Position numbers and translations under genes: made by a program
Source: Phycisphaerae bacterium
GTDB taxonomy: Bacteria; Planctomycetota; Phycisphaerae; SM23-33
Reading direction: 5' to 3'
Assembly (NCBI GenBank): GCA_041946855.1
Contig: JBHGBE010000005.1
Span: 11,108-75,107, forward strand
DNA length: 64,000 nt
Shown here: positions 20,443 through 60,751 of the stretch, one piece after another
How positions within the stretch are numbered: position 1 is the first letter of the stretch
How the letters are laid out: every line of letters begins with the position of its first letter
Notes under the pieces: model-generated
The model's input: the letters and a program-made list of their open reading frames with translations, nothing else
The model's database searches: none
Told to the model about the DNA's origin: nothing

Positions 20443-20706
20443 ATGACCATCCGGGAGTTTCAGGACTTCATCTACAAACAGTACTACCCCACGGACTCCA
20501 ATCGCGGCACGCCCGCGACATTCCTGTGGTTCATGGAGGAGGTGGGCGAGCTGGCCTCAGCCCTGGCCGGCGACGATGAGCACAACAAGGAGGAAGAGTT
20601 CGCGGACGTCTTCGCGTGGCTTTGCACACTGGCCAACATCAACGGCGTGGACCTGGCCAAGGCCATCGAGAAATACACGGTGCGGGGGGTAGAAGGACAC
20701 AAGTGA
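20443..20706 (+). CDS. MazG-like nucleotide pyrophosphohydrolase (small MazG family)
   Basis: MTIREFQDFIYKQYY...FLWFMEEVGELASAL...EEEFADVFAWLCTLANINGVDL shows the EExxE/D MazG motifs. The ORF-track N-terminal extension (MCPPICNLQSAICN) is translated repeat DNA, so the inner Met is used. Confidence 0.75.
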   Translation: MTIREFQDFIYKQYYPTDSNRGTPATFLWFMEEVGELASALAGDDEHNKEEEFADVFAWLCTLANINGVDLAKAIEKYTVRGVEGHK

Positions 20707-20836
20707 TTTTCGATTGACGATTTCGATTGGCGATTGCTCAAAAAGAGAACCCGGCCCGTCTCTGGTTCACAAGACCAAAGACGGGCCGCGTCCTTGTAGT
20801 TCAATCGTCAATCGCCAATCGGCAATCGACAATCAG
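20705..20836. repeat. Heptamer-arm inverted repeat element B between convergent genes, with a nested GC hairpin
   Basis: Left arm gattttcgattgacgatttcgattggcgattgc. Right arm tcaatcgtcaatcgccaatcggcaatcgacaatcag. Centre contains CGGCCCGTCT...AGACGGGCCG. The arms overlap both stop codons. Confidence 0.7.
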
Positions 20837-29599: not shown

Positions 29600-30057
29600 G
29601 GCAACACTCCAACAAAACGCCATCATGATACCGGTATGAGTCCAGCTACGTTAGACGATGCAATGGCGGTGCCAAGGGTGGTGCGAAGGAGTCCGCGGCG
29701 CGCAGCGCGCCTAACACCCTTGCAAAGAGGACGTTACGGGTATGGGAAACGGCGAGAAGACACGTCAAGTGTGCCGTTTATGCCGGAATGATTGCTGCCG
29801 GCAACATAGCAGCAGACCACAACCGCCCGACGAGCCCTGCCTAAGCGGTCTCGCGAGCGGCCTGGCTGCGGAATGTTGAAGGCCGGCAACATGTTTACAA
29901 CCGGCAACGTCAAGGTAGCCTGCCCTCGCGCCGCAGCGTTTGCACCGGGAACATACGATTCCCTCGGCCGAGCGGCAAATCCCGCAATTCGATTCCGCGG
30001 TTGGCAATCCTCTTGTGGCAAACGCGATATCGCCCGCTTACAATTACGCGGAGAAAT

Positions 30058-30711
30058 ATGGCCGTACAGGAGCAGCCCGTGGCTCAGCGGCAATTCGAAT
30101 TCGTGCTGGCCTCCTCCAGTCCACGGCGGCAGGCGCTGTTGCGCGATGCCGGCTACAGCTTCAAGGTGATCGCCCCGCCGATCCAGGAGCCCGACGAGAT
30201 CATCGGCAAACTGCCGCCGGCGCAGCAGGCGGAGTCGCTGGCGTACTTCAAGGCGCGCTCGGTGGCGGATGCGCATCCAGGCGTCTGGGTCCTCGCCGCC
30301 GACACGATCGTCACGCTGGCCGGCAAGGTGATGGGCAAGGCGGCCGACGCCGACGCGGCCCGCGCGATGCTCCGCACCCTCTCCGGCACGCGCCACACGG
30401 TCGTCACCGGCGTGGCCCTGCTTGGGCCAGACGAGGAGCGGCTCATCGCCTCCGACGTCACCCACGTTACCATGCGCAAGATGTCGCCGCTGGAGATCGA
30501 GTCGTACATCGCATCGGGCGAGTGGATCGGCAAGGCCGGCGCCTACGCCATCCAGGAGACGGCCGACCGCTTCGTCCAGAAGGTCGAGGGGAGCTTCTCG
30601 AACGTCGTCGGTCTTCCCGTCGAGCTGGTCGGGAGGATGATCGCCGAGATGCGCTCGCACCCGCAGATGCATAAGGCCGGCATGCCCATCACCCAGCAGG
30701 TTTCGCCATGA
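30058..30711 (+). CDS. maf: Maf-like nucleoside triphosphate pyrophosphatase
   Basis: FVLASSSPRRQALL...ADTIVTL...TRHTVVTGVAL...YIASGEW.GKAGAYAIQE. Confidence 0.85.
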   Translation: MAVQEQPVAQRQFEFVLASSSPRRQALLRDAGYSFKVIAPPIQEPDEIIGKLPPAQQAESLAYFKARSVADAHPGVWVLAADTIVTLAGKVMGKAADADAARAMLRTLSGTRHTVVTGVALLGPDEERLIASDVTHVTMRKMSPLEIESYIASGEWIGKAGAYAIQETADRFVQKVEGSFSNVVGLPVELVGRMIAEMRSHPQMHKAGMPITQQVSP

Positions 30712-31193
30712 GGCACATTCCCACGTTCCTTGCGGCCGTACTGCTCGCCGCGGCGCTGGCCGCCGCCGACGGCTGTTCCGAAAGGTCGCCCGTTACTCCG
30801 CGCGTCACCATCAACGGCCACACGTGGACCGTCGACCTGGCCACGACGCGCAAGCAGCGTTACGACGGCCTGTCCGGCCGGACGTACCTCGCGCCGGGCT
30901 ACGGGATGCTGTTCGTCTATCCCACGCCTCGGCCGCTTGAGTTCTGCATGCGCGGTTGCCCGGTGCCCATCGACATCGCCTTCATCGGCGCCGACATGCG
31001 CGTCATCAAGACATATCAGATGCACGTCGAGCCGAACCTTGAGGAGAAGGACATCTATCCCTCCGACCGGCCGGCGCAGTTCGCCCTGGAGGTGGCCGGC
31101 GGGACGCTCGTGCGGGCCGGCGTGAAGGAGGGAGACGTCGTCACCTTCTCCGCCGACATGCCCCCGCCAGCTAAAGCCGAGGACGAGCCTTGA
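30708..31193 (+). CDS. DUF192 (COG1430) secreted protein
   Basis: Signal peptide with lipobox. GLSGRTYLAPGYGMLFVY...PIDIAFIGADMRVI matches the DUF192 pattern. ATGA overlap with maf. Confidence 0.7.
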   Translation: MRHIPTFLAAVLLAAALAAADGCSERSPVTPRVTINGHTWTVDLATTRKQRYDGLSGRTYLAPGYGMLFVYPTPRPLEFCMRGCPVPIDIAFIGADMRVIKTYQMHVEPNLEEKDIYPSDRPAQFALEVAGGTLVRAGVKEGDVVTFSADMPPPAKAEDEP

Positions 31194-31314
31194 CGATGAA
31201 GAACCAGGAAATGAAGAATGCAGAATGATGAATGCAGAATGTAGAAGTCAGACGGGTACGTAATGGCTGTCACTTCATCATTTTACTTTGAACATTTTGC
31301 ATTCTGCATTTCCA
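31194..31314. repeat. Heptamer-arm inverted repeat element D (GAATGCA type)
   Basis: Left arm gatgaagaaccaggaaatgaagaatgcagaatgatgaatgcagaatgtagaag directly after the DUF192 stop. Right arm ttcatcattttactttgaacattttgcattctgcatttcc. Confidence 0.7.
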
Positions 31315-31345
31315 GTGGGTCAAGGCCCCACGTCTTCCGGGCGCT

Positions 31346-32596
31346 GTGCAGGAGCCTTGTCCCCTGGAGATCGACTTGCCGTCCAAGCGAAAGCTCCTGT
31401 GGATATCCGACGCCTCCGTGCCGCCCAACCTGCGCAAGGCGCTGGGCGACGAGTGGGAGCTCGCGCCCTGCGCGTTCGGCCAGACGCTTGAGGCCCAGCT
31501 TGCCGAGGCGGGCCTGGCGGTCATCTACCCCAACGGCCGGCGCGACGATCCACTGCACCTGGGCATGATCCTCGGCGCACTGGAGCGGACGCCGGCCGTC
31601 GCGCTGCTCATGCTCGACGGGCCGCGGCGCACGCGCGGCAGCGGCGCCTCACACGGCGCGCGCCCGGCCGTCGCGGGAAGGTCCGGCCAGTTCCTCTGCG
31701 CCGCCGCCGACAGCACGCCGCGCGAGCTTGCCGCCAAGCTCACGGCCGCCGCCGCCCTCCAGCCGGCCATCCGCGAACTCCACGCGGAGCTCGCCTCCGC
31801 GCGCAAGCTCGCCGCCACGGCCGGCGCGATGGAGGAACTCGACGAGGAGCTGCGCCTGGCCGCGCGGCTCCAGCGCGACTTCCTGCCGCGGCGGATGCCC
31901 GAGGTCGGCCCGGTGCGCTTCGGCGTGCTCTACCGCCCGGCGAGCTGGCTGTCGGGCGACATCTACGACGTGACGCGCCTCGACGAACGGCACGTGGGCT
32001 TCTACGTCGCCGACGCCGTCGGCCACGGCATGCCCGCGGCGCTGCTGACCATGTTCATCAAGCACGCCCTCCAGACCAAGCGGATCGTCGGCAGCACATA
32101 CCAGATCGTCCCGCCGGAGGTCTCGCTGGCCGAACTGAACGCCGACATCTGCCGGCAGAACCTGACGAGCTGCCAGTTCTGCACGGCCGTCTACGCGGTG
32201 CTCGACACCGAAACGCTCACGCTCACCTACTGCCGCGCCGGCCACCCGCCGCCGATCATATTCCGCAATCCGAATTCGACAATCGGCAATCTCCAATCTA
32301 CAATCCTCGACGCTCCCGGCAGCCTGCTGGGCGTCTTCCCGGAGGAGACCTACCAGTCGCGCACGGCCGTGCTCGCTCCCGGCGACCGCCTGGTTCTCTA
32401 CACCGACGGGGCGGAAGAGGCGCTTCGCCGCGCCGACGGCAAGGGCGGCCTGGAAAAGCTGCTCGCGCCCCTGGCGGCCGCGCCGCGGGATGAGATGCTC
32501 CTGCGCCTGGCCGCGATGCTCGACGACGCCGCCGGCAACCCCAACAGCCGGGATGACATCACCGTCATGGTTGTGGATGTCCAGCGCGAATCATAG
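31346..32596 (+). CDS. PP2C-family (SpoIIE/RsbU-like) serine phosphatase with an N-terminal regulatory domain
   Basis: VADAVGHGMPAALLT...YCRAGHPPP...LYTDG...D motifs. The exact start is uncertain. Confidence 0.8.
   Translation: MQEPCPLEIDLPSKRKLLWISDASVPPNLRKALGDEWELAPCAFGQTLEAQLAEAGLAVIYPNGRRDDPLHLGMILGALERTPAVALLMLDGPRRTRGSGASHGARPAVAGRSGQFLCAAADSTPRELAAKLTAAAALQPAIRELHAELASARKLAATAGAMEELDEELRLAARLQRDFLPRRMPEVGPVRFGVLYRPASWLSGDIYDVTRLDERHVGFYVADAVGHGMPAALLTMFIKHALQTKRIVGSTYQIVPPEVSLAELNADICRQNLTSCQFCTAVYAVLDTETLTLTYCRAGHPPPIIFRNPNSTIGNLQSTILDAPGSLLGVFPEETYQSRTAVLAPGDRLVLYTDGAEEALRRADGKGGLEKLLAPLAAAPRDEMLLRLAAMLDDAAGNPNSRDDITVMVVDVQRES
32262..32310 (+). repeat. Heptamer repeat block E (6-7 x CAATCNN) lying in frame inside the PP2C phosphatase CDS
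   Basis: ccgcaatccgaattcgacaatcggcaatctccaatctacaatcctcgac encodes RNPNSTIGNLQSTIL. It shares caatctacaatc with elements A and C. Confidence 0.65.
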
Positions 32597-32785
32597 CCGC
32601 GCCCGCCCGCCAACCGGCCCCGAGGCAGGTTTTACCCAGATTACCCAGTCGCATATAAGTTCGGGTTCGTTTCGGGATCTTGCCTTCTTTGGCGGGCCGG
32701 AAATGTTGATTTCAGGCAACTTTGGCTTTGTCTTGCAGAACGGCCCTTTTTGGCGAAGGCGGTTCTTGGGCGGTCTGCGGGTCGC

Positions 32786-32816
32786 ATATAACATATTGTA
32801 ACAACTAATGTTATAT
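32786..32816. promoter_or_regulatory. 9-bp inverted repeat ATATAACAT-N13-ATGTTATAT in an AT-rich island upstream of the 33033 cluster
   Basis: Seen directly. The surrounding 32597..33032 region is markedly AT-richer than the genome and non-coding. Confidence 0.4.
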
Positions 32817-33032
32817 CACAAACGCGAAATGTCTAAATCCCCCAGATTAACACTTTACGTATGTTGTGTATTCTGCGTATCCTTTTCAGCCAGCGCCCTT
32901 TAACTCTGCCTGCCTTACCCAATCTGTGCAATTCATGGGCACACCACGAGCCGCAGGGCCGACGGCCGTGGAATCGGATTGACGCCGATGGACGCCGCCA
33001 TGAGAATCTCCCAGCGGAATTGAGGACTACCC

Positions 33033-34025
33033 GTGAAGGCGTCGCTCCTGGATTATCTCGCATGCCCCTTCTGCCATTCCCCTCTGCGCCTGGAGGTCAG
33101 CGCTCGGGCAGGTGACATCATCGAGGCGGGCGCGGTCCAATGCCCATCCTGCGGCGATTCGTACCCCATCCGCGGCGGCATCCCCGACATGCTCTGCCCT
33201 CGCCTGGCCGGCATCGACCTCAAGCTGCGCGAGGTCCGCGGCTGGGTTGCGATGGCCTCCAAGGACGGTTGGTACGAGCCGGATGACCGCGTCGACCTGG
33301 CCCTCCCGTACGTGGTGGAGAAGCTGGGATGGGACCCCAGGGGCGCGGCCGTGTGGGTCGCCACGCGGACATCCTTCGAGCGCCTGCTGAACTGTTACGT
33401 GCGGCCGGGCATGCGCGTGCTGGAGGTCGGCGCGGCCAAGACGTGGGCCGGCCGTTACTTCATCCAGCGCGGCTGCCGGTACACCGCCTGCGACCTCGTG
33501 GGCGACGCCAACATCGGCGTCGGCCGGTCGCGCTTCTTCACGGAGCGTTTCGGCCATTACGAGGCGGTGGTGGCCGACGCCGAGCAACTGCCCTTCGCGG
33601 ATGGGAGCTTCGACCTGGTCTATGGCGTCGCCGCGCTTCACCACGCGCTGGACCTGCGCAGGATGGTCGGCCAGATGGCCCGCGTGGCCCGGCGCGGCGC
33701 TGTCGTCGCCGGCCTGAACGAGGGGGTGCGCTCCTACCGCGCCGGCGCCGAGGCCGGCGTGCAGGGCAAGGAGAAGCAGTTCGGCATAAACGAGCACGTC
33801 CACACGTTGGGGGACTACCGCGCCGCGTTCCGTCGCGGCGGCCTGAGGATCGCGGAGATGACCCTCGGCCTGGACCGCGCCGGCGCCGGCCCCAAAGGCA
33901 AACTCGGGCGGCTGATCGACGCCCTCCAGCGCATCCCCCGCATCGGCGGACCGATGGCGACATGGCTGACGTTGGGCCTGCTGCTGCCCTACGGCGGCGT
34001 CACGATCTTCGCGCGCAAACCGTGA
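33033..34025 (+). CDS. SAM-dependent methyltransferase with N-terminal Trm112-like zinc-ribbon domain
   Basis: LDYLACPFCHSPL...CPSCGDSYPIRGGIPDML (Trm112 fold). VLEVGAAKTWAG class-I methyltransferase motif I. Confidence 0.7.
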   Translation: MKASLLDYLACPFCHSPLRLEVSARAGDIIEAGAVQCPSCGDSYPIRGGIPDMLCPRLAGIDLKLREVRGWVAMASKDGWYEPDDRVDLALPYVVEKLGWDPRGAAVWVATRTSFERLLNCYVRPGMRVLEVGAAKTWAGRYFIQRGCRYTACDLVGDANIGVGRSRFFTERFGHYEAVVADAEQLPFADGSFDLVYGVAALHHALDLRRMVGQMARVARRGAVVAGLNEGVRSYRAGAEAGVQGKEKQFGINEHVHTLGDYRAAFRRGGLRIAEMTLGLDRAGAGPKGKLGRLIDALQRIPRIGGPMATWLTLGLLLPYGGVTIFARKP

Positions 34026-34476
34026 GGCGGCGGCGGGCGGCAGGGCTTGCGCGGCGCAGCAGAGCAGCCACGTATCGTTCGTGTTGAAGGGCGGCGGGCA
34101 GAGCGCGGCGGGCGACGAGAATTTTTTTTCGCCTTTGGCCGGTGACAGTGGACTTGGGGCCGAAGCGGACCGTAATATGGAAGGCTGAAGACCGAGCGTG
34201 CAACGGCGCCTGTTGCGCGTCGGTCCCAAGGGTGCGGCAGTACAGTGCTGTCGTAGGTGTTCGGGCAGGTCGGGCCGCCTCCCGGAGAATGGACTGCGGA
34301 GAGCGGCATGGACAAGCTCGAGCGCACGGCCATTTCCACCAATCAGGCCAGCGGCGCCGGCTGTGTTTTGCGCCTTGGCCGCACGCTGTTCCGCGGCGCG
34401 ACGCCGCCGGCGGCCCGCCCGGCCGCGCGGGGCGCGGCGCGCGCCGTGGCCTGGGCCGCGGGGTAGGAGGTGGTCC

Positions 34477-36084
34477 GTGAAGATCACCAACATCCTGACC
34501 CCGGAGACTGTCATCACGGGCCTATCGGCGGCCAGCCGGGATGAGGCAATCCGCGCGCTGATAGACCTCCTGGGCAAGTCCAGGTGCGTTGACGGCGAGA
34601 GGGCCGGGCTGGACGTCGCGGCCAGGGACCGAAGCGGCCTGACCCTCATGTCCATGCGGGGGCCGGTCGTGGCGGTTCCCCACGCCCGCACCAGCGCGTG
34701 CAACCAGTTGGTCATGGCGCTGGGAACATCGCCCGAGGGCGTGCCGTGGGACGGCCCCACCCGCGCGAACCTGGCCGTGCTCATCCTTTGCCCGCCCCAG
34801 GCGCACGCGCTGTACCTGCGGGTCCTGGGCCGCATCGCCCGGATGTTCGAGGCCAGGGACCTGCTCGAATCGATGCTTCGCGCCTCCACCGGCAGGGAGG
34901 TCATGGCCCTGCTGGCGGCGGCCGAGGAGCCGCTGGGCGAGATGGTCGCCGGCGACGGGCTCCCGACCTTCTGCGTCCTGGGCGCGGGCCATGGGGGCCT
35001 GGCGATGGCCGCCCATCTTGCCCTGAACGGGTGCAAGGTGAACGTCTTCAACAGGACCGACGCGCACATAGAACTGGTCCGCACAAGGGGCGGCATTGAC
35101 GCCGAGGGAGAGGTGAACGGATTCGCGACCCTCAATGTCGTCAGTTCCAACCCGGCGGAGGCAATAAATGATTGCGACGTGCTGATGGCGGTCGTGCCGG
35201 CGACCGCGCATCGCGACATCGCCAGGATCATCGCCCCGCACATCAAGGACGGGCAGACCCTCGTTCTGAACCCGGGGCGGACCGGCGGGGCCCTGGAGGT
35301 CGCCAGGATCATACGCCAGGGCAATCCCAACGTCCGGCCGTATATAGCCGAGGCGCAGACGCTGCTCTACGCCGCCCGCGCGACGAACCCCGGCCAGGTG
35401 CGGGTGTTCGGGGTCAAGAACTCCGTGCCGCTGGCGACGCTGCCGGCGTACAGCGTCACCGACGTGCTGCCCGTCATTCGCAAGGCCCTGCCGCAGTTCG
35501 TCCCCGGCGACAACGTGCTGAAGACCAGCCTGGACAATATCGGCGCGGTCTTCCATCCCGCCATCACCATCCTCAACGCCGCCCGCATAGAGGACACGCA
35601 CGGCGACTTCGAGTACTACGTGGAGGGGGTCACGCCCGCGGTGGCGAGGGTCCTGGAGGAGATCGACAAGGAGCGGGTGGCCGTGGCCGCCGCGCTGGGC
35701 ATCCGCGCCAACACGGCCCGCGAATGGCTGTACCTCGCGTACGACGCGCCCGGCAAGACGCTCCTCGACGCCATGAGGGCCAACGCCGGGTACGCGGGCA
35801 TCAAGGCCCCCGGCACCATGGAGCACAGGTACATCTCGGAGGATGTGCCCTGTAGCCTCGTGCCCATAGCGTCCATAGGCGAGATGCTTGGCGTCCGCAC
35901 GCCGACTATCCGCTCGATCATCCGCCTTGCCTCCGCGATGCACGGCGTGGACTACTGGGCCGAGGGCAGGACGGTGGAGCGGCTGGGGATCAACGGGATG
36001 TCCGTAAAGGAGATTCGTTTCCTGGTGGTGGGGGCTGAAGGGGCCGCCGAGCCGCCGGCGCCGGCGCCTCCCGCGGAAGAATGA
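34477..36084 (+). CDS. PTS EIIA(Ntr)-type domain fused to an NAD(P)-binding opine-dehydrogenase-like domain
   Basis: GTG start with an AGGAGG ribosome-binding site. ITNILTPETVITGL...VVAVPHARTS (EIIA-2 with phosphorylatable His). FCVLGAGHGGLAMAAHLALNGCKV Rossmann fold. Octopine/nopaline-dehydrogenase-like C-terminal helical domain. Confidence 0.65.
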   Translation: MKITNILTPETVITGLSAASRDEAIRALIDLLGKSRCVDGERAGLDVAARDRSGLTLMSMRGPVVAVPHARTSACNQLVMALGTSPEGVPWDGPTRANLAVLILCPPQAHALYLRVLGRIARMFEARDLLESMLRASTGREVMALLAAAEEPLGEMVAGDGLPTFCVLGAGHGGLAMAAHLALNGCKVNVFNRTDAHIELVRTRGGIDAEGEVNGFATLNVVSSNPAEAINDCDVLMAVVPATAHRDIARIIAPHIKDGQTLVLNPGRTGGALEVARIIRQGNPNVRPYIAEAQTLLYAARATNPGQVRVFGVKNSVPLATLPAYSVTDVLPVIRKALPQFVPGDNVLKTSLDNIGAVFHPAITILNAARIEDTHGDFEYYVEGVTPAVARVLEEIDKERVAVAAALGIRANTAREWLYLAYDAPGKTLLDAMRANAGYAGIKAPGTMEHRYISEDVPCSLVPIASIGEMLGVRTPTIRSIIRLASAMHGVDYWAEGRTVERLGINGMSVKEIRFLVVGAEGAAEPPAPAPPAEE

Positions 36085-36098
36085 GTGGAGATGCCGAT

Positions 36099-37586
36099 AT
36101 GTGTGGAATACTTGGAGTCTCCCGCGGGCGCGAAGCACGCACCGTCGCGCCCCTGCTGAAGCTGCTTGAGCATCGCGGCCCCGACGGCAAGGGCCTCTGG
36201 CACGACGACCATCACACGTTCGGGCACACTCGCCTGAGCATCATCGACCTGGAGGGGGGCGGCCAGCCGATGAGCGGCGCCGACGGCCGGATGCATGTGA
36301 CCTTCAACGGCGAGATATACAACTATCAGCAGCTCCGCCAGGCCATGGGCGAAGGGGTGTTTCGCACTCACAGCGATACGGAAGCCATCCTGGGTCTTGC
36401 CCAGACCGGCAGTCTCCCTGAAGTGTGGGTGAGGAAGCTGGATGGCATGTTCGCCTTCGCCCTGGCCGACGGGGCCGACCTCATGCTGGCGCGTGACCCG
36501 CTGGGGATCAAGCCGCTCTACATCGGCCAGGTCAAGGGCGCGATGGCGTTCGCGTCGGAGCTCAAGGCCCTGGTGGGAAGGGCGAGCCACATCTCGGAGT
36601 TCCCGCCCGGACACGTCTTTCACGTCAAGAGCGGCCTGAAGTGCTACTGGCGCTTGGAGAGGGCGGCCAAGGACATCCAGGACGCCCGGGAGGCGAAGGC
36701 CGGCCTGCGCGAGCGGCTGGAGCGAGCGGTCAGGACAAGGCTGATCGCGGATGTGCCGGTGGGCGTGTTCCTCAGCGGCGGGCTGGACAGCAGCCTTATC
36801 GCGGCGCTGGCCCGGAGGCACAAGCATCCCCTGGACACGTTCTCCGTCGGCACGGAGGGCAGTCCCGACCGGCTGCTGGCCTGGCAGGTGGCGGCGTTCC
36901 TGGGGACGCGCCATCACGAGCGCGTCTATGACATCGAGGAGGCCATTGAGGCGCTGCCGGAGGTGATCTACCACCTGGAGTCCTTCGACTGCGCGCTGGT
37001 CCGCAGCGCAGTCCCCAACTTCTTCCTGGCCAAGCTGGCGAGCCAGCACGTCAAGGTGTCGCTGTCCGGCGAGGGGGCGGATGAACTCTTCGCGGGCTAC
37101 GAGTACCTCAAGGACATTCCGGCCGACGCCCTCGACGCGGAACTGCTGAACATCACCTCCGCCCTGCACAATACGAACCTCCAGCGGTGCGACCGCATGA
37201 GCATGGCGCACGGCCTGGAGGTCCGCGTGCCGTTCCTGGACGACCTGGAGGTGGTGCAGTACGCCTTCCGGATTCCCGCGCGGCTGAAGCGCTATGGCAC
37301 GGAGGGAATTGAGAAATGGATACTCCGCATGGTCGCCCAGGACGTGCTGCCGGAGAACATCGCCTGGCGGAAGAAGATGAAGTTCGCCGCCGGCGCCGGG
37401 CTTGGCGACAAGCTGGCGGTCTTCGCGGACAAACAGATCAGCGACGGCGACTTCCGCCGCCAGCGCGAGATCGCGGATGGCACGTTCCTGGGCTCCAAGG
37501 AGGAACTGCTGTACTACCGCATCTTCAGGCAGATGTACCCGCGCGACGAGCTGATTCCACTGGTGGGGCGAAGCCGGAGCGTTTGA
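36099..37586 (+). CDS. Asparagine synthase (glutamine-hydrolysing) family amidotransferase
   Basis: MCGILG N-terminal nucleophile Cys. SGGLDSS PP-loop. Start set at the Met immediately preceding the Cys. Confidence 0.85.
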   Translation: MCGILGVSRGREARTVAPLLKLLEHRGPDGKGLWHDDHHTFGHTRLSIIDLEGGGQPMSGADGRMHVTFNGEIYNYQQLRQAMGEGVFRTHSDTEAILGLAQTGSLPEVWVRKLDGMFAFALADGADLMLARDPLGIKPLYIGQVKGAMAFASELKALVGRASHISEFPPGHVFHVKSGLKCYWRLERAAKDIQDAREAKAGLRERLERAVRTRLIADVPVGVFLSGGLDSSLIAALARRHKHPLDTFSVGTEGSPDRLLAWQVAAFLGTRHHERVYDIEEAIEALPEVIYHLESFDCALVRSAVPNFFLAKLASQHVKVSLSGEGADELFAGYEYLKDIPADALDAELLNITSALHNTNLQRCDRMSMAHGLEVRVPFLDDLEVVQYAFRIPARLKRYGTEGIEKWILRMVAQDVLPENIAWRKKMKFAAGAGLGDKLAVFADKQISDGDFRRQREIADGTFLGSKEELLYYRIFRQMYPRDELIPLVGRSRSV

Positions 37587-37616
37587 CCGGTCCGGGGATG
37601 CAATAGCGAGGCCAAG

Positions 37617-39506
37617 GTGAAGCACGCGTTGACAAAGGACGACTGCTTCGGGCTGGCGCGGCCGGTCGTGGACTCCCACACGCTGGGGATAAGCTCCGTC
37701 GAGCAATCGCTGCGCGACTGCGGCGTGAAGACGGTCGTGGCGGACGCCGCGACGTGCGAGGCGTTCGGCGCGCCGCAGGCGCCGGCCTGCATGGCGGCCA
37801 TCGAGCGCTGGATCCGCGAGAACCGAATCACGGCCCTTGGCTTCAGCTACCGGCTGGACCCGGAGGAGGGCTCGGCGATCTTCGAGAGGCTGGTCCACGA
37901 ACTGAAGGCCAGGCGTTTCCTGTCCGCGCAGGGAGGCGTGCTCAAGTCCCTGTTCTTCGCCGGCCTCCCGGCCGCGTGCGGGATAGTGGAGCGGCGGGTG
38001 CCGGAGGTCAGCGGGACCTTCCGCGGCGACGAAACGCCGGCTCAGACGCTGGCGATATTGGGCGTCAGCCCGAAGGCCATCCCAAGCGAGATGGCCGGAG
38101 GCATGGCCTATGACGAGGACCGGCTCGCCTTCGGCAGGGACCTGATTCGCAAGGGGGAATACCTGGCGGTCAAGCCGGTTGACCGCGGCGGCTACAAGGA
38201 CTTCGGCTCCGAGGCGGACACGCTGGCCGCCAGGATCGCCGACGGGCGCAAGCGCAGGCTGCCCCCCATCATGCGGGCCCACGTCGGGCCTTATCTTCCC
38301 GACCGCCTCGCGGCCGTCCGCCTGTTCATGGAGTGGGCGCGGCGGCTTGCCGCCTCCGGGCACCTGGACGTGCTGTCCATCGGCACGTCGCAGTTGACGC
38401 AGTCGAACTTCGGGGACGACTGGGCCGGCAAGCCCAACGGCGGCGGCGTGCCGCTGAATTCGCCCGGGGAGTTCGCGGATGCGTGGCGGGCCGCCAGGCC
38501 AATGCTGGTCCGCGCCTACGCGGGGACGCGCGATGTACCCGCCCTGGCGCGGATGTACGAGCGGACGATTCACATCGCCTGGCACGCGCTGTCGCTGTGG
38601 TGGTTCTGCCGCATAGACGGGCGCGGGCCGTACACGCTCCGCGAGAACCTCCAGCAGCACGTCCGTGCGCTCAAGTGCATCGCCTCGACGGGCAAGCCCT
38701 TCGAGCCCAACGTGCCGCACCACTTCGCCTTCCGGGGCGCGGATGACGTGACCTACGTGGTTTCCGCCGTCCTCGCGGCGACCCTGGCGAAGGTGCTGGG
38801 CATCCGCTGCCTGGTCCTCCAGAACATGCTCAACACGCCCAAGTACACCTGGGGCATCCAGGACCTGGCCAAATCGCGCGCGATGCTCCGCCTTGTGCGC
38901 GAGCTGGAGGGCCCGCGGTTCCGCGTGTTGCTACAGCCGCGGGGAGGGCTGGACTACTTCTCGCCGGACCTGGACAAGGCCCGCGCCCAACTGGCGGCCG
39001 TCACGGCCCTGATGGACGACATCGAGCCGCACAACGGCCGGAGCCCCGAGCTGATCCACGTCGTGAGCTACTCGGAGGCGACACGGTTGGCGGACCCGGA
39101 TGTCGTCGACGAGAGCATCAAGATCACCCGTCACGCGCTGGCGGAGTACCGAAGGCTCCGGTCCACGGGCCAGGTCGACGACATGTCCCGCCATCCGGAC
39201 GTCGCCGAAAGGACCGAGCAACTGGTGGCCCAGGCGAGGACGGTCCTGGCGTTCATAAAGTCGACAGTCCCGGGGCCCTTCACGCCGGAGGGCCTGTATC
39301 AAGTGTTCGCGGCGGGGTTTCTTCCCGTGCCGTACCTGTGGGAATGCAGGCAGGAGTTCAAGCCGGCCGTCTGCTGGCAGACAAGGGTCATCGGCGGATC
39401 GGTCAAGGTCGTGGACGAGCGCGGCGTCCCCATGCCGGTCATAGAGCGGATGCGCCGGACGTGCGCATCCGCCGGGCTGGGCATGTTGAGAGGAAGGGAC
39501 AAGTGA
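37617..39506 (+). CDS. Hypothetical 629-aa protein with an N-terminal cobalamin(B12)-binding-like domain (DxHxxG ... GG)
   Basis: PVVDSHTLGISSVEQSLRDCGVKTVV ... AQGGVL. The remainder is unrecognised. Confidence 0.45.
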   Translation: MKHALTKDDCFGLARPVVDSHTLGISSVEQSLRDCGVKTVVADAATCEAFGAPQAPACMAAIERWIRENRITALGFSYRLDPEEGSAIFERLVHELKARRFLSAQGGVLKSLFFAGLPAACGIVERRVPEVSGTFRGDETPAQTLAILGVSPKAIPSEMAGGMAYDEDRLAFGRDLIRKGEYLAVKPVDRGGYKDFGSEADTLAARIADGRKRRLPPIMRAHVGPYLPDRLAAVRLFMEWARRLAASGHLDVLSIGTSQLTQSNFGDDWAGKPNGGGVPLNSPGEFADAWRAARPMLVRAYAGTRDVPALARMYERTIHIAWHALSLWWFCRIDGRGPYTLRENLQQHVRALKCIASTGKPFEPNVPHHFAFRGADDVTYVVSAVLAATLAKVLGIRCLVLQNMLNTPKYTWGIQDLAKSRAMLRLVRELEGPRFRVLLQPRGGLDYFSPDLDKARAQLAAVTALMDDIEPHNGRSPELIHVVSYSEATRLADPDVVDESIKITRHALAEYRRLRSTGQVDDMSRHPDVAERTEQLVAQARTVLAFIKSTVPGPFTPEGLYQVFAAGFLPVPYLWECRQEFKPAVCWQTRVIGGSVKVVDERGVPMPVIERMRRTCASAGLGMLRGRDK

Positions 39507-39572
39507 CTGAATGAGGACTTTGGGAACGAACACACCGATACCGCGGCGCAAACCACGGCGATGGAGGCGCGA

Positions 39573-39761
39573 TCAGGCAGCGGTTGTGACCACGACATCG
39601 GCGCGGATCGTGGGTTCCGGGATCGGCTCGCCATCCTCGGCCAGCCCCTTGAGGTGCATGTCTATGGCCTCGGCAATGGATTGCCGCGCCTCTTCCTGAG
39701 TGGCATAGCCCACAACGGCGCAGCCCGGCAGATCGGGCACGTAGGCCCCTCGTGTTTTCAC
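39573..39761 (-). CDS. hicB: HicB-family antitoxin-like protein (orphan)
   Basis: YVPDLPGCAVVGYATQEEARQSIAEAIDMHLKGLAEDGEP matches the HicB/UPF0150 pattern. Putative GTG start overlaps (GTGA) the stop of the upstream TPR-hydrolase gene. No HicA partner seen. Confidence 0.55.
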   Translation of the reverse strand: MKTRGAYVPDLPGCAVVGYATQEEARQSIAEAIDMHLKGLAEDGEPIPEPTIRADVVVTTAA

Positions 39762-41236
39762 CGTGTCGCGGCTGCGGAGATCGGATCTGACGCCGGCTGG
39801 CTGGCGGGCCTGCTCGCGGGCAGCTTGCCTTGGGCGACCTCGTCCAGCCACTTTTCCAGGACGGCAAGGTTGGCCTTGTCCGACGGCCGTAGGAGCCAGC
39901 CGTGGCCCGCGCCCTGGACGTACTCAATGGTCAGCGGCACGCCCGCGTCGGTCCAGGGCTTCTCGACCTTGCGCCACATCTCGCAGAGCGGCTTGATGCC
40001 CCGCGCCTTGGCGGCGGCCGCGTTGCCGCCCGCGCCGAAGTCCTCCGTGCCGACGACCACGAGGATGGGCGTCTTCCTGACATCCTTGCCCTTGGGGGGC
40101 TCAAGCGGCTTGGCGACGAGGCGGCCGCCCTCGACGGTCTGGCTGACCGGGTATGCGGCGTCGATGATGAGCCCGCCGAACTTGTCGGCGTTGTCGGCCC
40201 AGAGCGACAGGGCCATCTGCCCGCCGGCCGAGAAGCCCATCAGGATCGGCCGCCGAACGTCGATGCCTTCGATCTTCCCAACCTCAGGCAATGTCTTGTT
40301 GAGCAGCTTGACGGCGTCCTCGCCGCTCCAGCCCATCCAGTTCTTGCGCGTCAGCACGAGCAGCGCGAAGCCTTTCTTGACCATCATGGGCGAGAGGGCC
40401 TCGGCGAAGATGTTGGCCGAGCCGCCGGATGGGTGCATCCAGATGATGAGCCTGTCGGGCTTGTCCCTGGCGGCGTCGGGGCCCATCCGCAGGCGGTATC
40501 GCAGGCCGCCGGTGGGGAAACCCTCGACCGTCTTGACGCCCTCGATGTCCTTGCCCTTCTCATAAGGGGCCTTCTTCTCGTTCTCATCCGCCTTGGCGGC
40601 AAGCTCGTCGAACTGCTTGTCCTTGCGAAGCTCGGCCAGGTCGGGATCGCTGCGCATGTGCTCGGGATTGTCCCAGCCGAGATCGACCGCCTTGGCCAGG
40701 GCGGCCATCGCCTCATCCTTCCTGCCCAGGAGCGCCAGTGCGCACGCCAGGTTGTAGCGGGAATTGGCGTTATTGGGATTGTTTTTCACATCCGCGGACC
40801 ACTTGTCGAGTTCCTTTGTGGCGATGGCGGAGATCAGGTCCTTGAAGGCCTGCCTGTCGCGAAGGGCGGCCAGGTCGTCGTCGGCCCTGATATGGGAGAT
40901 GTCGGTGTAGCCAAGCTCGACTGACTTGGTGAGACTGGCCATGGCCTCCTCGTTCTTGCCTAGGCGGGCCTGGGCGCAGGCGAGGTTGTAATAGCCCATC
41001 GGGTCCTTGGGCGTCAGGTCGATCACCTGCCGGCATAGGGCGGCCGCCTTTTCGTAATCCTTGCTGGCGAATAGTCTTATAAGGTCCTGCTGGAGGGCCG
41101 CGGCCTTGGCGGTGCGCTGTTGAGGCGACATGGCCGGCCCGGTGGCCGGCTCGGAGGCGGGGTCTTCCGCGAGCGACAGGCCGTGACCCGCGGCCAGTGT
41201 CAGGATTGCACAGGCGATCAGTCGAGTGATACGCAT
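39758..41236 (-). CDS. Secreted TPR-repeat protein fused to an alpha/beta-hydrolase (esterase/dienelactone-hydrolase-like) domain
   Basis: Signal peptide MRITRLIACAILTLAAG. TPR units. GFSAGG nucleophile elbow. Downstream Asp/His. Confidence 0.7.
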   Translation of the reverse strand: MRITRLIACAILTLAAGHGLSLAEDPASEPATGPAMSPQQRTAKAAALQQDLIRLFASKDYEKAAALCRQVIDLTPKDPMGYYNLACAQARLGKNEEAMASLTKSVELGYTDISHIRADDDLAALRDRQAFKDLISAIATKELDKWSADVKNNPNNANSRYNLACALALLGRKDEAMAALAKAVDLGWDNPEHMRSDPDLAELRKDKQFDELAAKADENEKKAPYEKGKDIEGVKTVEGFPTGGLRYRLRMGPDAARDKPDRLIIWMHPSGGSANIFAEALSPMMVKKGFALLVLTRKNWMGWSGEDAVKLLNKTLPEVGKIEGIDVRRPILMGFSAGGQMALSLWADNADKFGGLIIDAAYPVSQTVEGGRLVAKPLEPPKGKDVRKTPILVVVGTEDFGAGGNAAAAKARGIKPLCEMWRKVEKPWTDAGVPLTIEYVQGAGHGWLLRPSDKANLAVLEKWLDEVAQGKLPASRPASQPASDPISAAATR

Positions 41237-41358
41237 TGGCTTGCACCTCGTTTTGCTGCCGGAAGCGGCTTGCCGGACCGTCCGAAAGGCTGCCCCGGCG
41301 GGCGGATTTCGCGGCCAAGACCCTACATGGCAACTATTTCCGGGGCAAGATGTTTTTG

Positions 41359-41389
41359 GTTGACGCGGCTGTGGCACGCTCTATAATTT
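41359..41389 (+). promoter_or_regulatory. Strong sigma-70-like promoter TTGACG-N16-TATAAT
   Basis: Seen directly. About 470 nt upstream of nusA. Confidence 0.5.
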
Positions 41390-41747
41390 AGCGTCAACTT
41401 GTGTACGGACTGTTTGTCGCCTGCCATGCCCAGGAGGCAACGGGCTGTGTGCAGGCGGCACTGTTTATTCGTGCGGACGGCAGTTGGCTGTTTGAGAGCG
41501 GCTAATGTTGTCGTTTTTTGCCAAAGAGAACTTTTCAGGCCGGGAGCGAACGAGTATGCGCCCCAGCAAGGTCCACGCCGGTGTTACGGCTTAGGCCCAT
41601 GGCGGTTGTGCCCCGCCGGGCCTGCGGAGGAACAGGTCCGCCCGGATAGTTTGCGGGGCGGCGCGCCATCGGCGCCGGAGGCGGTGAGCCAAACCGCCGA
41701 CGGCCGGCGGCACGCCCCCTGACAAGGCGAGGCTTGCGGCTTGAAAG

Positions 41748-41781
41748 TGGGCAGAGGCGACCCACTTTTTTTGTCGCCTTC
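41748..41781 (+). terminator. Rho-independent terminator (AGTGGG-cagaggcga-CCCACT + TTTTTTT)
   Basis: Stem-loop followed by a T7 run, seen directly. Located about 55 nt upstream of nusA. Confidence 0.6.
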
Positions 41782-41833
41782 GCGGCGGCCCCGGCGGCGC
41801 CGCGGGATACGGACATAAGAATAAGGGAAAAGA

Positions 41834-60434: not shown

Positions 60435-60610
60435 GTTTGTGCTCCTTTTCTGTTAGTCCCGGCAGCGCCGAGACTTGACCCGCATCTCTAATCGACCCAT
60501 TCTCAAGCCGACTTAATTTACCTAATCGCTACAGTTTACCACATCTGCGCAAATTAACACGTGAAAAGAGAGATAAAGTAGGAGATTTGGGACCGGAATC
60601 AAGAACTACA

Positions 60611-60750
60611 GCGTTGCTTCGTTACTTCGTTAACTCGTTACTTCGTACATGTGTGGCCCCAGGAGTAACCGTGCGGGCCGAACAGAGCCGGGCGAGCCAC
60701 GAATCAGCCAAGTAACGAAGCTACGAAGCAACGAGGCAACGAGTCAACGC
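60611..60750. repeat. Heptamer-arm inverted repeat element H (CGTTACTT type)
   Basis: Left arm gcgttgcttcgttacttcgttaactcgttacttcgtac. Right arm caagtaacgaagctacgaagcaacgaggcaacgagtcaacgc, ending 1 nt before the stop of the 60752..63442 gene. Confidence 0.7.
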
Positions 60751-60751
60751 C

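What the first reader, a model, noticed from the sequence alone, without database searches (positions are those of the whole stretch)
32597..39506. Uncharacterised four-gene cluster preceded by an AT-rich control region
A roughly 430-nt AT-rich, non-coding island (32597-33032) contains the inverted repeat ATATAACAT-N13-ATGTTATAT. It precedes four co-directional genes:
- a Trm112-like zinc-ribbon methyltransferase;
- an EIIA(Ntr)-domain fused to an opine-dehydrogenase-like NAD(P) enzyme;
- an AsnB-family amidotransferase, starting with the catalytic MCGILG;
- a 629-aa protein with an N-terminal B12-binding-like DxHxxG...GG domain.

The genes are tightly spaced (36084/36099 and 37586/37617). The combination of amidotransferase, dehydrogenase, methyltransferase and putative cobalamin protein looks like a small-molecule modification or biosynthesis pathway. 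The PTS-Ntr regulatory domain hints at control by nitrogen/carbon status. I cannot assign a known pathway.
Basis: partly seen in the sequence, partly recalled or inferred. Interest (0 to 1): 0.6.

Follow-up and report, generated by a model that had tools for sequence, protein, structure and literature searches.

The report
Riboswitch-led B12 mutase and opine-dehydrogenase operon
The real unit is a three-enzyme operon (regulated opine-type dehydrogenase, asparagine-synthetase-type amidating enzyme, and an uncharacterised vitamin-B12 mutase) led by a lithium/sodium-sensing riboswitch. Its core is conserved across more than a dozen phyla and probably makes an unknown salt-stress metabolite.

Summary
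The sequence features are real, but the unit was drawn wrongly. The methyltransferase (33033-34025) and the AT-rich region with its 9-bp inverted repeat are not part of the conserved system. No homologue of the methyltransferase lies near the B12 gene in 80 related genome loci.

It is followed by a deleted remnant of a small membrane-protein gene and then three genes:
- EIIA-fused opine dehydrogenase (true start 34477);
- AsnB;
- a 629-aa protein.

The 629-aa protein models as a B12-binding Rossmann domain fused to a TIM barrel like the glutamate mutase E subunit. Its family is 50-78% identical across more than 12 phyla, has no Pfam or NCBIfam model, and I found no paper on it.

It sits next to the opine-dehydrogenase gene in 67 of 80 loci. 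It usually also has a Cys-less AsnB-like or ATP-grasp ligase and MscS-type channel genes nearby. The same aptamer heads the operon in five other phyla, and NhaR or NhaA genes adjoin it in some planctomycete loci.

Best reading: an alkali-cation-induced pathway to an unidentified compatible solute that uses a new adenosylcobalamin mutase. The chemistry is inferred, not shown.

The parts
32597..33032 (.). AT-rich intergenic region with the inverted repeat ATATAACAT-N13-ATGTTATAT (32786-32816) and sigma-70-like hexamers. It is the upstream region of the methyltransferase gene only and is not part of the conserved module.
   Evidence: The inverted repeat appears in 7% of simulations. No relative carries this region upstream of the module.
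33033..34025 (+). Gene 1: Trm112-like zinc ribbon fused to a class I SAM methyltransferase (330 aa). It is a neighbour, not a member of the conserved module.
   Evidence: Pfam Trm112p 35.7 bits and Methyltransf_11 50.3 bits. tblastn finds no homologue within the 80 related loci. No methyltransferase lies upstream in L081 or L082.
34228..34285 (+). nhaA-I RNA aptamer (Rfam RF03057; Li+-I riboswitch class, rare variants of which are Na+-II). It is the 5' leader of the operon. It carries the U before CGGGCC that is typical of Li+-I.
   Evidence: Rfam 47 bits against a gathering score of 37, E 6.7e-7, full length 1-55/55. My own covariance model R1 gives 62.7 bits. On 12 aptamers, 7 of 13 pairs show compensatory changes and 93.6% of cells are paired, reached by 0 of 500 shuffles. 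Discriminator nucleotide taken from PMC9646797 Supplementary Table II.
34308..34466 (+). Internally deleted remnant (52 codons) of the small 114-aa membrane-protein gene ('smp') that follows this aptamer in relatives. Its stop codon TAG (34464-34466) adjoins and shares its last base with the Shine-Dalgarno GGAGG (34466-34470) of gene 2.
   Evidence: The DNA alignment with L081 and L082 shows the aptamer, the smp start and the junction TAGGAGGTGGTCCGTGAAGATCACCAA conserved, with the central part of smp deleted in the window. BLASTP of the N-terminal 28 aa gives 39% identity, E 7e-6. smp homologues follow aptamers in L001, L002, L004, L018, L081 and L082.
34477..36084 (+). Gene 2 (535 aa): PTS EIIA type-2 domain, with His retained in AVPHA, fused to a CENDH-type opine dehydrogenase.
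   Evidence: Pfam PTS_EIIA_2 64.9 bits and Octopine_DH 175 bits. PDB 1bg6, N-(1-D-carboxyethyl)-L-norvaline dehydrogenase, E 3.8e-78 over 352 aa, with the residue aligned to His202 conserved. Start site.
36099..37586 (+). Gene 3 (495 aa): full-length glutamine-hydrolysing asparagine synthetase B type enzyme with the Cys1 nucleophile (MCGILG). It occupies the slot held in most relatives by a Cys-less AsnB-like synthetase or an ATP-grasp ligase.
   Evidence: NCBIfam AsnB equivalog 531 bits against a cutoff of 499. 45% identity to the operon AsnB' of L082, over the synthetase domain only. N-terminus census.
37617..39506 (+). Gene 4 (629 aa): fused B12-binding Rossmann domain (about 1-135; D19-x-H21-x-x-G24), an eight-strand TIM barrel of glutamate mutase E type (about 218-483) and a C-terminal helical/beta region. 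It is a putative adenosylcobalamin-dependent isomerase of an uncharacterised family.
   Evidence: AF2 pLDDT 82.5, pTM 0.86. Foldseek hits 1cb7_B E 5e-11, 6h9e_B and 3kow_B. N-terminal domain matches B12-binding domains. H21 and G24 are invariant in the 16-sequence alignment. No Pfam hit above cutoff, no NCBIfam hit and no PDB sequence hit. Distant paralogues hit Met_asp_mut_E and B12-binding or are fused to MutL.

Best explanation
Shown:
- The functional unit is 34228-39506. It consists of an nhaA-I (Li+/Na+ class) riboswitch aptamer, a decayed small-membrane-protein leader ORF, and three co-directional, closely spaced (probably co-transcribed) genes: EIIA-fused opine dehydrogenase, an AsnB-type amidotransferase, and a fused GlmS/GlmE-like B12 protein.
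- The dehydrogenase + mutase pair, usually with an amide-forming enzyme and an MscS-type channel, is an operon conserved across more than 12 phyla.

Inferred:
- When intracellular alkali cation rises (Li+, or Na+ under salt stress), the aptamer folds and allows expression.
- The mutase uses adenosylcobalamin, bound base-off/His-on through H21, to rearrange the carbon skeleton of a glutamate-like amino acid, by analogy to glutamate to 3-methylaspartate.
- The opine dehydrogenase uses NAD(P)H to join an amino group to a 2-oxo acid such as pyruvate, giving an N-(carboxyalkyl) amino acid.
- The AsnB-type enzyme (an ATP-grasp ligase in spirochaetes) uses ATP to convert a carboxylate into an amide and so lowers net charge.
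- The product is an unidentified compatible solute or ion-stress metabolite derived from the glutamate pool. The MscS-like proteins co-encoded in relatives would act as release valves.
- The EIIA domain adds a phosphorylation-dependent switch on the dehydrogenase.

The order of the steps and the identity of the product are not known.
For: Riboswitch:
- Rfam hit above the gathering score.
- The same aptamer lies directly 5' of the first operon gene in L018 (Verrucomicrobia), L019 (Kiritimatiellia), L029 (Lentisphaerae), L038 (Holophaga), L052 (Spirochaetaceae), L081 and L082. Covariation supports the fold.
- The class is experimentally validated as Li+-sensing with Na+-sensing variants. Its known gene associations include nhaA, otsA, mscS and trkA (PMC9646797).

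Other salt links:
- A regulator passing the NhaR equivalog cutoff (230 vs 219 bits) is divergent from the operon in L002; its cluster is present near the operon in 5 loci.
- NhaA lies at the end of the L081 operon.
- MscS-domain genes lie inside the operon: cluster 5 in 25 loci and cluster 12 in 7 loci.

Precedent: Na+-I riboswitches control the aminomutase genes ablA and eam for beta-amino-acid osmolytes (PMC9337991).

Enzymes:
- Fold and motif evidence for a GlmS+GlmE-like B12 enzyme.
- Paralogues fused to the MutL/GlmL domain.
- The dehydrogenase matches CENDH 1bg6 at E 3.8e-78.
- AsnB or AsnB' occurs in 26 of 80 loci and an ATP-grasp ligase in 13 more.

Co-conservation: the ODH gene is adjacent on the same strand in 67 of 80 loci.
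Against: - No product, substrate or expression data exist; the chemistry rests on analogy only.
- Only about 8 of 83 loci show the aptamer at the operon head, and many loci have no recognisable salt-linked regulator.
- The aptamer has the U typical of Li+-selective members, so the physiological signal could be Li+ rather than Na+ or osmotic stress.
- In about 10 Tissierellia/Clostridium loci the mutase stands alone, next to amino-acid ABC transporter, M20 amidohydrolase or S8 peptidase genes. That context looks catabolic.
- The window's AsnB passes the housekeeping AsnB equivalog model, so it could simply be the cell's asparagine synthetase.
- The window itself has no MscS, NhaA or NhaR gene next to the operon.
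- B12 binding and radical chemistry are predicted, not demonstrated.
Confidence: 0.5

Rival explanations
1. It is a catabolic (fermentative) route. The B12 mutase and the dehydrogenase degrade an amino acid or an opine-like imino acid, as in glutamate, ornithine or lysine fermentation, where a B12 mutase is followed by a dehydrogenase.
For: - Most carriers are anaerobes.
- Ornithine 4,5-aminomutase is the third-best fold hit.
- The stand-alone mutase in Tissierellia and Clostridium ultunense-type loci sits beside amino-acid ABC transporter, M20 amidohydrolase and S8 peptidase genes.
- Treponemataceae loci add an aminotransferase, a Glu/Asp symporter and ArgG/ArgH.
- Opine dehydrogenases are reversible.
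Against: - No methylaspartase, thiolase or CoA-transferase type partner is conserved.
- ATP-consuming amide-forming enzymes (AsnB', ATP-grasp) and MscS channels are unusual in a fermentation operon.
- A Li+/Na+ riboswitch and NhaR/NhaA neighbours are not expected for substrate-induced catabolism.
- No Lys is invariant in the Rossmann domain, which argues against a PLP-dependent aminomutase of the OAM/LAM type.
Confidence: 0.15
2. It is a lithium-specific response unrelated to osmoprotection. The operon makes a metabolite that bypasses or protects a Li+-sensitive target, or an aminopolycarboxylate (opine-type) chelator.
For: - All 12 aptamers have GGUCGGGCC, the U variant of the validated Li+-I class.
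- The authors of PMC9646797 note that non-nhaA genes behind Li+ riboswitches may point to Li+ toxicity targets.
- Opine dehydrogenases (CntM) do make metallophores (my own knowledge).
Against: - MscS channels and NhaR (a Na+-responsive activator) fit salt or osmotic stress better.
- The C54U mutant of the Na+-II aptamer responds to Li+, Na+ and NH4+, so the U alone does not exclude Na+ sensing.
- No CntL-like or metal-transport genes are conserved in the operon.
Confidence: 0.12
3. It is cell-envelope remodelling. The module makes or ligates an unusual (D- or branched) amino acid for peptidoglycan or another envelope polymer under ionic stress.
For: - The ATP-grasp partner is closest to D-Ala-D-Ala ligases.
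- Alanine-racemase-like genes occur in L003 and L007. An ORF with an Asp/Glu-racemase-like N-terminal sequence (assignment from my reading of the sequence only, not family-searched) lies next to Treponemataceae operons.
- One paralogue of the mutase is fused to a Peptidase_M15_3 domain, another to a RimK/GshB-type ATP-grasp.
- AsnB homologues amidate peptidoglycan diaminopimelate in some bacteria (my own knowledge).
Against: - These extra genes occur in few loci.
- No Mur ligase, flippase or transpeptidase genes are conserved nearby.
- An NAD(P)H opine dehydrogenase has no known role in envelope synthesis.
- MscS co-location is better explained by a soluble cytoplasmic product.
Confidence: 0.1
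4. One reading: a four-gene small-molecule pathway (methyltransferase, dehydrogenase, amidotransferase, B12 protein) controlled from the AT-rich region and its inverted repeat, and tuned by nitrogen/carbon status through the EIIA(Ntr) domain.
For: - The four genes are co-directional, and promoter-like hexamers lie next to the inverted repeat.
- The EIIA domain keeps its His (sequence).
- A lineage-specific tailoring methylation cannot be excluded.
Against: - The methyltransferase is absent from all 80 related loci and is not upstream of the operon in the two closest relatives.
- A separate riboswitch leader, homologous to that of the relatives, lies between gene 1 and gene 2.
- The inverted repeat is weakly significant.
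- The EIIA fusion occurs in only about a quarter of the loci.
Confidence: 0.08

Closest known systems
Adenosylcobalamin-dependent glutamate mutase (GlmS/MutS + GlmE/MutE, EC 5.4.99.1; PDB 1cb7, 6h9e)
   Same: - A B12-binding Rossmann domain with the DxHxxG motif close to the N-terminus and no cap domain.
- A TIM barrel that is the best fold match, E 5e-11.
- Distant paralogues reach the Pfam MutE model or are fused to the MutL/GlmL domain.
   Different: - S and E parts are fused in one 629-aa chain.
- There is no sequence-level hit to Pfam MutE or to any PDB chain.
- No GlmL or methylaspartase partner is present.
- The obligate partner is an opine dehydrogenase.
- The substrate is unknown.
N-(1-D-carboxyethyl)-L-norvaline dehydrogenase of Arthrobacter sp. 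1C (CENDH, PDB 1bg6), opine dehydrogenase family
   Same: Alignment over 352 aa at E 3.8e-78. It has a Rossmann domain plus the Octopine_DH helical domain, and the residue aligned to the catalytic His202 is conserved.
   Different: - Here it is fused to an N-terminal PTS EIIA type-2 domain, in planctomycete, Syntrophales, Acidobacteria and some Lentisphaeria loci.
- It is encoded in an operon with a B12 mutase.
- The physiological substrates of both enzymes are unknown.
Li+-I / Na+-II riboswitches (nhaA-I motif, RF03057; PMC9646797)
   Same: Full-length aptamer above the Rfam gathering score. Two hairpins with the conserved GGUCGGGCCGCC loop region. It lies 5' of genes on the same strand.
   Different: The published associations list nhaA, otsA, nhaD, trkA, mscS and oadG. 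A dehydrogenase/B12-mutase operon and the small membrane protein are not named there. Ligand preference of these members is untested.
Alkali-ion-riboswitch-controlled osmolyte aminomutase genes (Na+-I riboswitch with ablA, eam; PMC9337991), and osmolyte gene clusters carrying an mscS gene
   Same: An alkali-ion riboswitch lies in front of a radical isomerase acting on an amino acid. A mechanosensitive channel gene sits in the same operon in relatives.
   Different: Those mutases are radical-SAM/PLP 2,3-aminomutases with known products (beta-lysine, beta-glutamate). Here the enzyme is B12-type, is partnered with an opine dehydrogenase, and has an unknown product.
Asparagine synthetase B and its Cys-less relatives (beta-lactam synthetase 1jgt, CarA 1q15)
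   Same: The window enzyme passes the AsnB equivalog model. The operon-typical AsnB' proteins keep the ATP-dependent synthetase domain (1ct9 E 4.6e-47).
   Different: Most operon copies start M[P/A/S]GIAG, lack the Cys1 nucleophile and have a shortened N-terminal domain. They therefore cannot hydrolyse glutamine as AsnB does. They are much closer to AsnB than to beta-lactam synthetase.

Membership tests
Glutamate mutase (AdoCbl carbon-skeleton isomerase) | B12-binding Rossmann domain with the base-off/His-on motif DxHxxG | tested here: met
   H21 and G24 are invariant and position 19 is D or E in 16 sequences. The domain model's top hits are 4r3u_C, 8dpb_D, MetH, 2yxb and MttC. Pfam B12-binding is only 16.5 bits in the window protein but 34 bits, above the cutoff, in paralogue P0173.
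Glutamate mutase (AdoCbl carbon-skeleton isomerase) | GlmE-type TIM-barrel catalytic domain | tested here: met
   Fold level only. Foldseek 1cb7_B E 5e-11 with TM 0.48/0.61, and 6h9e_B E 4e-10.
Glutamate mutase (AdoCbl carbon-skeleton isomerase) | Sequence membership in Pfam PF06368 (Met_asp_mut_E), or a detectable match to solved GlmE chains | tested here: not met
   No Pfam hit for the window protein. phmmer and profile searches of the PDB find no GlmE. Only distant paralogues reach PF06368, for example P0163 at 27.5 bits against a 26.6 cutoff.
Glutamate mutase (AdoCbl carbon-skeleton isomerase) | Genomic partners GlmL/MutL and methylaspartate ammonia-lyase | tested here: not met
   Neither is among the conserved neighbours in 80 loci. 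MutL occurs only as a fusion in distant paralogues.
Glutamate mutase (AdoCbl carbon-skeleton isomerase) | Substrate-binding residues of GlmE (the arginine triad and Glu171) and actual glutamate to 3-methylaspartate activity | not testable with these tools
Opine dehydrogenase (PF02317; CENDH type) | NAD(P)-binding Rossmann domain plus Octopine_DH helical domain, with the catalytic His | tested here: met
   Octopine_DH 175 bits against a cutoff of 30. 1bg6 E 3.8e-78, with His aligned to His202.
PTS EIIA(Ntr) / PtsN | EIIA type-2 fold with a phosphorylatable His | tested here: met
   PTS_EIIA_2 64.9 bits against a cutoff of 27. The His lies in ...VVAVPHA... (sequence).
PTS EIIA(Ntr) / PtsN | Orthology to the stand-alone nitrogen regulatory protein PtsN (TIGR01419) | tested here: not met
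   36.9 bits against a cutoff of 138.7. It is a fused domain, not PtsN itself.
Asparagine synthetase B | N-terminal Cys nucleophile with a GATase domain, plus the Asn_synthase domain, at equivalog score | tested here: met
   The protein starts MCGILG. NF006949 scores 531 bits against a cutoff of 499. Most operon homologues elsewhere lack Cys1.
nhaA-I RNA (Li+-I / Na+-II riboswitch, RF03057) | Covariance-model score at or above the gathering threshold, with both hairpins | tested here: met
   47 bits against 37, model positions 1-55 of 55. Compensatory changes in 7 of 13 pairs across 12 related aptamers.
nhaA-I RNA (Li+-I / Na+-II riboswitch, RF03057) | Position 5' of, and on the same strand as, the regulated gene | tested here: met
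   The aptamer ends 22 nt before the smp remnant's ATG and 191 nt before gene 2. The same layout is seen in 7 other loci.
nhaA-I RNA (Li+-I / Na+-II riboswitch, RF03057) | Selective binding of Li+ (or Na+) and ligand-dependent gene activation | not testable with these tools
   Only the discriminator nucleotide could be read: U as in Li+-I, not C as in the D. propionicus Na+-II aptamer.
Compatible-solute biosynthesis operon | Salt-induced expression and accumulation of the product | not testable with these tools
   Only indirect genomic links are available: the riboswitch, NhaR, NhaA and MscS genes.

The most novel reading that the evidence does not exclude
The 629-aa protein founds a new class of adenosylcobalamin-dependent carbon-skeleton mutase. 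Together with a dedicated opine dehydrogenase and an amide synthetase, it makes a previously unknown amidated N-carboxyalkyl (opine-type) branched amino-acid compatible solute. Its synthesis is switched on directly by intracellular Li+/Na+ through a riboswitch. The pathway is widespread in anaerobic Planctomycetota, Verrucomicrobiota, Spirochaetota, Desulfobacterota-type, Acidobacteriota and other lineages.
Probability: 0.3. Interest if true: 0.85.

Novelty: new variant of a known kind. Interest (0 to 1): 0.72.

Why it matters
- The list of reactions catalysed by adenosylcobalamin isomerases is short and has grown rarely. Here is a very conserved family (50-78% identity across phyla, at least 401 species-level genomes and more than 2,900 sequence clusters). 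It has no Pfam or NCBIfam model and no solved relative detectable by sequence, yet it has a fixed enzymatic partner and a sensory RNA that indicates when it is used.
- That combination makes the function directly testable: induce with salt or Li+, look for the new solute, and reconstitute three enzymes.
- It would also give the Li+/Na+ riboswitch class its first multi-enzyme metabolic target and add a B12 demand to salt adaptation in anaerobes.
- It shows that ORF callers extend the dehydrogenase gene over the riboswitch, which hides the riboswitch.

Tried and rejected
- Sequence searches of the 629-aa protein and of its 16-sequence profile against the PDB gave only noise. The same search with paralogue P0163 matched only its ATP-grasp part. 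I therefore could not map GlmE active-site residues.
- Seven of eight full-text literature searches found no paper on this gene pair. They combined glutamate mutase, opine or octopine dehydrogenase, cobalamin, mechanosensitive, osmolyte, compatible solute, methylaspartate and riboswitch. The nhaA-I search did return the riboswitch papers used here.
- A Rfam scan of seven loci at gathering threshold found only one further aptamer. A purpose-built model was needed to find the rest.
- I considered a cobalamin riboswitch or another known RNA in the AT-rich region. None was found at E <= 1 in 30000-42000.
- I considered a PLP-dependent aminomutase (OAM/LAM type). I rejected it as the leading idea because no Lys is invariant in the Rossmann domain.
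- I considered a methylcobalamin methyltransferase. It is disfavoured because no cap domain precedes DxHxxG, GlmE and OAM are the top barrel matches, and paralogues carry MutL fusions.
- I considered a beta-lactam-synthetase-like cyclase role for the Cys-less AsnB'. It is much closer to AsnB (E 4.6e-47) than to BLS or CarA (E 1.9e-16 and 1.4e-11).
- A Pfam census of 90 other same-strand neighbours gave no further conserved partner.

Full report
**What is in the sequence**

The window is high-GC (0.66) and comes from a Phycisphaerae metagenome-assembled genome. The 629-aa protein is 100% identical to an NCBI 'cobalamin-binding protein' from such a genome.

Region 32597-33032 is a genuine low-GC intergenic island. 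It carries the perfect inverted repeat ATATAACAT-N13-ATGTTATAT at 32786-32816 and promoter-like hexamers next to it. The repeat alone is weak evidence: 7% of Markov-1 simulations of the region contain an equivalent repeat.

| Gene | Domains |
|---|---|
| 1 | Trm112p + Methyltransf_11 |
| 2 | PTS_EIIA_2 + Octopine_DH |
| 3 | AsnB, above the NCBIfam equivalog cutoff, starting MCGILG |
| 4 | 629 aa, with only a sub-threshold B12-binding hit |

**The B12 protein**

An AlphaFold model built on 16 homologues is confident (pLDDT 82.5, pTM 0.86). It shows three parts:
- an N-terminal alpha/beta domain;
- an eight-stranded TIM barrel;
- a C-terminal helical/beta part.

Foldseek against the PDB puts the glutamate mutase E chain first (1cb7_B, E 5e-11; 6h9e_B), followed by ornithine 4,5-aminomutase.

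The N-terminal 147 residues, modelled alone (pLDDT 89.8), best match B12-binding domains: the 2-hydroxyisobutyryl-CoA mutase small subunit, the MeaB-bound mutase domain, MetH, methylmalonyl-CoA mutase and MttC. H21 and G24 of the D/E-x-H-x-x-G motif are invariant. The motif starts at residue 19 with no cap domain before it, as in GlmS (my own knowledge of the GlmS sequence).

A profile search of 1.8 billion representatives finds only 559 clusters. Among the distant ones, some reach Pfam Met_asp_mut_E and B12-binding. Others are fused to MutL/GlmL, to an ATP-grasp or to a Peptidase_M15_3 domain.

I conclude that gene 4 encodes a fused GlmS+GlmE-like, probably adenosylcobalamin-dependent isomerase. 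It is not a sequence-level member of the glutamate mutase family, because there is no Pfam, NCBIfam or PDB sequence hit. Its substrate is unknown.

**Conservation and context**

The family is strikingly conserved. The listed top 120 hits are 63-78% identical, and more than 2,900 clusters were found.

A genome scan gave 401 species-level hits. I fetched the best 80 loci, which are 51-70% identical. They come from Planctomycetota, Verrucomicrobiota, Kiritimatiellia, Lentisphaerae, Omnitrophota, WOR-3, Syntrophales, Acidobacteriota, Armatimonadota, Spirochaetota, Atribacteria, Clostridia/Tissierellia and one Aenigmatarchaeota record.

Results from tblastn and all-against-all clustering of neighbouring ORFs:
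- The opine-dehydrogenase gene is adjacent on the same strand in 67 of 80 loci.
- An AsnB-type gene is present in 26 loci.
- A D-Ala-D-Ala-ligase-like ATP-grasp is present in 13 loci, mostly spirochaetes. Three more loci have other ATP-grasp genes.
- MscS-domain membrane proteins lie inside the operon in 25 + 7 loci.
- The methyltransferase is found in none of the 80.
- The EIIA fusion occurs in about 20 loci (Planctomycetota, Syntrophales, Acidobacteriota, one Lentisphaeria).

Most operon AsnB-like proteins are 436-470 aa and start M[P/A/S]GIAG, so they have no Cys1 nucleophile. They still resemble the AsnB synthetase domain far more than beta-lactam synthetase. The window, L005 and a few others instead have a Cys-containing full-length AsnB. 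The window copy is 45% identical to the L082 AsnB-like protein, over the synthetase domain only.

About ten Tissierellia/Clostridium loci have the mutase without the dehydrogenase, next to amino-acid transport and peptidase genes.

**The real control region**

An Rfam scan of 30000-42000 found a full-length nhaA-I RNA at 34230-34283 (47 bits against a gathering score of 37, E 6.7e-7). It lies between gene 1 and gene 2, inside what the ORF list shows as the N-terminal extension of gene 2.

The true start of gene 2 is GTG 34477, behind GGAGG.

A covariance model built from nine instances finds the aptamer directly 5' of the first operon gene in these loci:

| Locus | Lineage |
|---|---|
| Window | Phycisphaerae |
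| L018 | Verrucomicrobia |
| L019 | Kiritimatiellia |
| L029 | Lentisphaerae |
| L038 | Holophaga |
| L052 | Spirochaetaceae |
| L081, L082 | The two closest relatives |

It also lies within a few kb of the operon in three Planctomycetales loci (L001, L002, L004). Across 12 aptamers, 7 of 13 pairs show compensatory changes.

In L081, L082, L018, L002, L004 and L001 the aptamer is followed by a small (about 114 aa) membrane protein with no known family. The window retains only its two ends: a 52-codon ORF at 34308-34466. The junction TAGGAGGTGGTCCGTGAAGATCACC is the same in L081, so the leader, the remnant and gene 2 belong to one inherited unit.

Further ion links:
- A regulator that passes the NhaR equivalog cutoff is divergent from the operon in L002. 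Its cluster is found near the operon in 5 loci.
- An NhaA gene ends the L081 operon.

**What the riboswitch senses**

The nhaA-I motif was validated as a Li+-selective 'ON' riboswitch (Li+-I). Rare Deltaproteobacteria variants respond to Na+ (Na+-II). A single C-to-U change at the nucleotide before CGGGCC broadens the response to Li+, Na+ and NH4+ (PMC9646797).

All aptamers found here have the U. By that one criterion they are Li+-I-like, but Na+ sensing under salt stress is not excluded.

The published associations are nhaA, otsA, nhaD, trkA, mscS and oadG. A dehydrogenase/B12-mutase operon is not named. Na+-I riboswitches are known to control the osmolyte aminomutase genes ablA and eam (PMC9337991), which is a close functional precedent.

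**How it most likely works**

Shown: the anatomy of the unit, its conservation, the folds and the riboswitch.

Inferred:
- Cation binding to the aptamer permits expression.
- The mutase rearranges a glutamate-like amino acid by B12 radical chemistry.
- The CENDH-type dehydrogenase (1bg6, E 3.8e-78, catalytic His conserved) forms or reduces an imine between an amino acid and a 2-oxo acid.
- The AsnB-type or ATP-grasp enzyme amidates a carboxylate.
- The product is a low-charge organic solute drawn from the glutamate pool, which cells build up early in salt stress (my own knowledge).
- MscS-like proteins in relatives would release it on down-shock.
- The EIIA domain, with its His intact, would add PTS(Ntr)-type phosphorylation control. 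In enterobacteria that system is tied to K+ homeostasis (my own knowledge).

I rate this at 0.5.

**Novelty**

I found no paper on this gene pair in the searchable library. The pieces belong to known superfamilies, so I class it as a new variant of a known kind. However, the mutase family, its obligate pairing with an opine dehydrogenase and its riboswitch control are undescribed as far as these tools can tell.

Noticed in passing
window 34198-34476: The mechanical ORF 34198-36084 extends gene 2 by 93 codons over the riboswitch aptamer and the smp remnant. The same artefact appears in L029, L038 and L052, where ORFs run over the aptamer. Automated annotation may hide this riboswitch.
   Followed up: yes
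L002 5539-5596 and 6382-6439; L001 896-951 (-); L004 6832-6887 (-): Planctomycetales loci carry one or two (tandem in L002) nhaA-I aptamers in front of the small membrane-protein gene. That gene lies next to an NhaR-type regulator that is divergent from the EIIA-ODH operon.
   Followed up: partly
L081 5945-6289; L082 4523-4867; L002 6451-6810; L018 7778-8116: A conserved membrane protein of about 114 aa with no Pfam family is the gene most often found immediately after these aptamers. Its function is unknown. It may be an ion-related membrane protein.
   Followed up: partly
P0185, P0225, P0206, P0163, P0201 (distant paralogues): Distant relatives of the mutase are fused to MutL/GlmL-like domains (1,226-1,266 aa), to a glutathione-synthetase/RimK-type ATP-grasp (863 aa) or to a Peptidase_M15_3 domain (732 aa). 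This suggests a wider, unexplored radiation of fused GlmSE-like enzymes.
   Followed up: no
L078 9974-11866 (CP070801.1, Aenigmatarchaeota MAG): The only archaeal locus has the mutase split into two ORFs (253 + 343 aa) and no dehydrogenase neighbour. This could be a pseudogene, a sequencing error or a recent transfer.
   Followed up: no
L081 12455-13644: The NhaA (Na_H_antiport_1) gene at the end of the L081 operon is called as two ORFs (143 + 253 aa). This is probably a frameshift or an assembly error.
   Followed up: no
L041, L045, L047, L048, L051, L059, L066, L075: In Tissierellia, Clostridium ultunense and Schnuerera loci the mutase has no opine-dehydrogenase neighbour. It sits by amino-acid ABC transporter, M20 amidohydrolase or subtilisin-like peptidase genes, which may indicate a different (catabolic) use of the same enzyme.
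   Followed up: partly
window 31346-32596: Upstream of the AT-rich region lies a SpoIIE/PP2C-type phosphatase with a long N-terminal region (416 aa; Pfam SpoIIE 141 bits). It is not conserved next to the module.
   Followed up: no
window 20701-20901, 31151-31401, 60401-60751: Three other low-GC islands (GC 0.45-0.51 in 200-nt windows) exist in the 64-kb window, so AT-rich intergenic spacers are a recurrent feature of this genome.
   Followed up: no
L006 1223-1285 (-): An Rfam int-alpA RNA hit just above the gathering score (37.5 vs 35.8 bits) in a Deltaproteobacteria locus, unrelated to the operon.
   Followed up: no
L003 and L007 (about 11964-13283 in L007); L020 5329-5964; L022: Some operons carry extra genes: alanine-racemase-like genes (L003, L007) and arylformamidase/cyclase-like genes (L020, L022). 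These may be lineage-specific tailoring or precursor-supply steps.
   Followed up: partly
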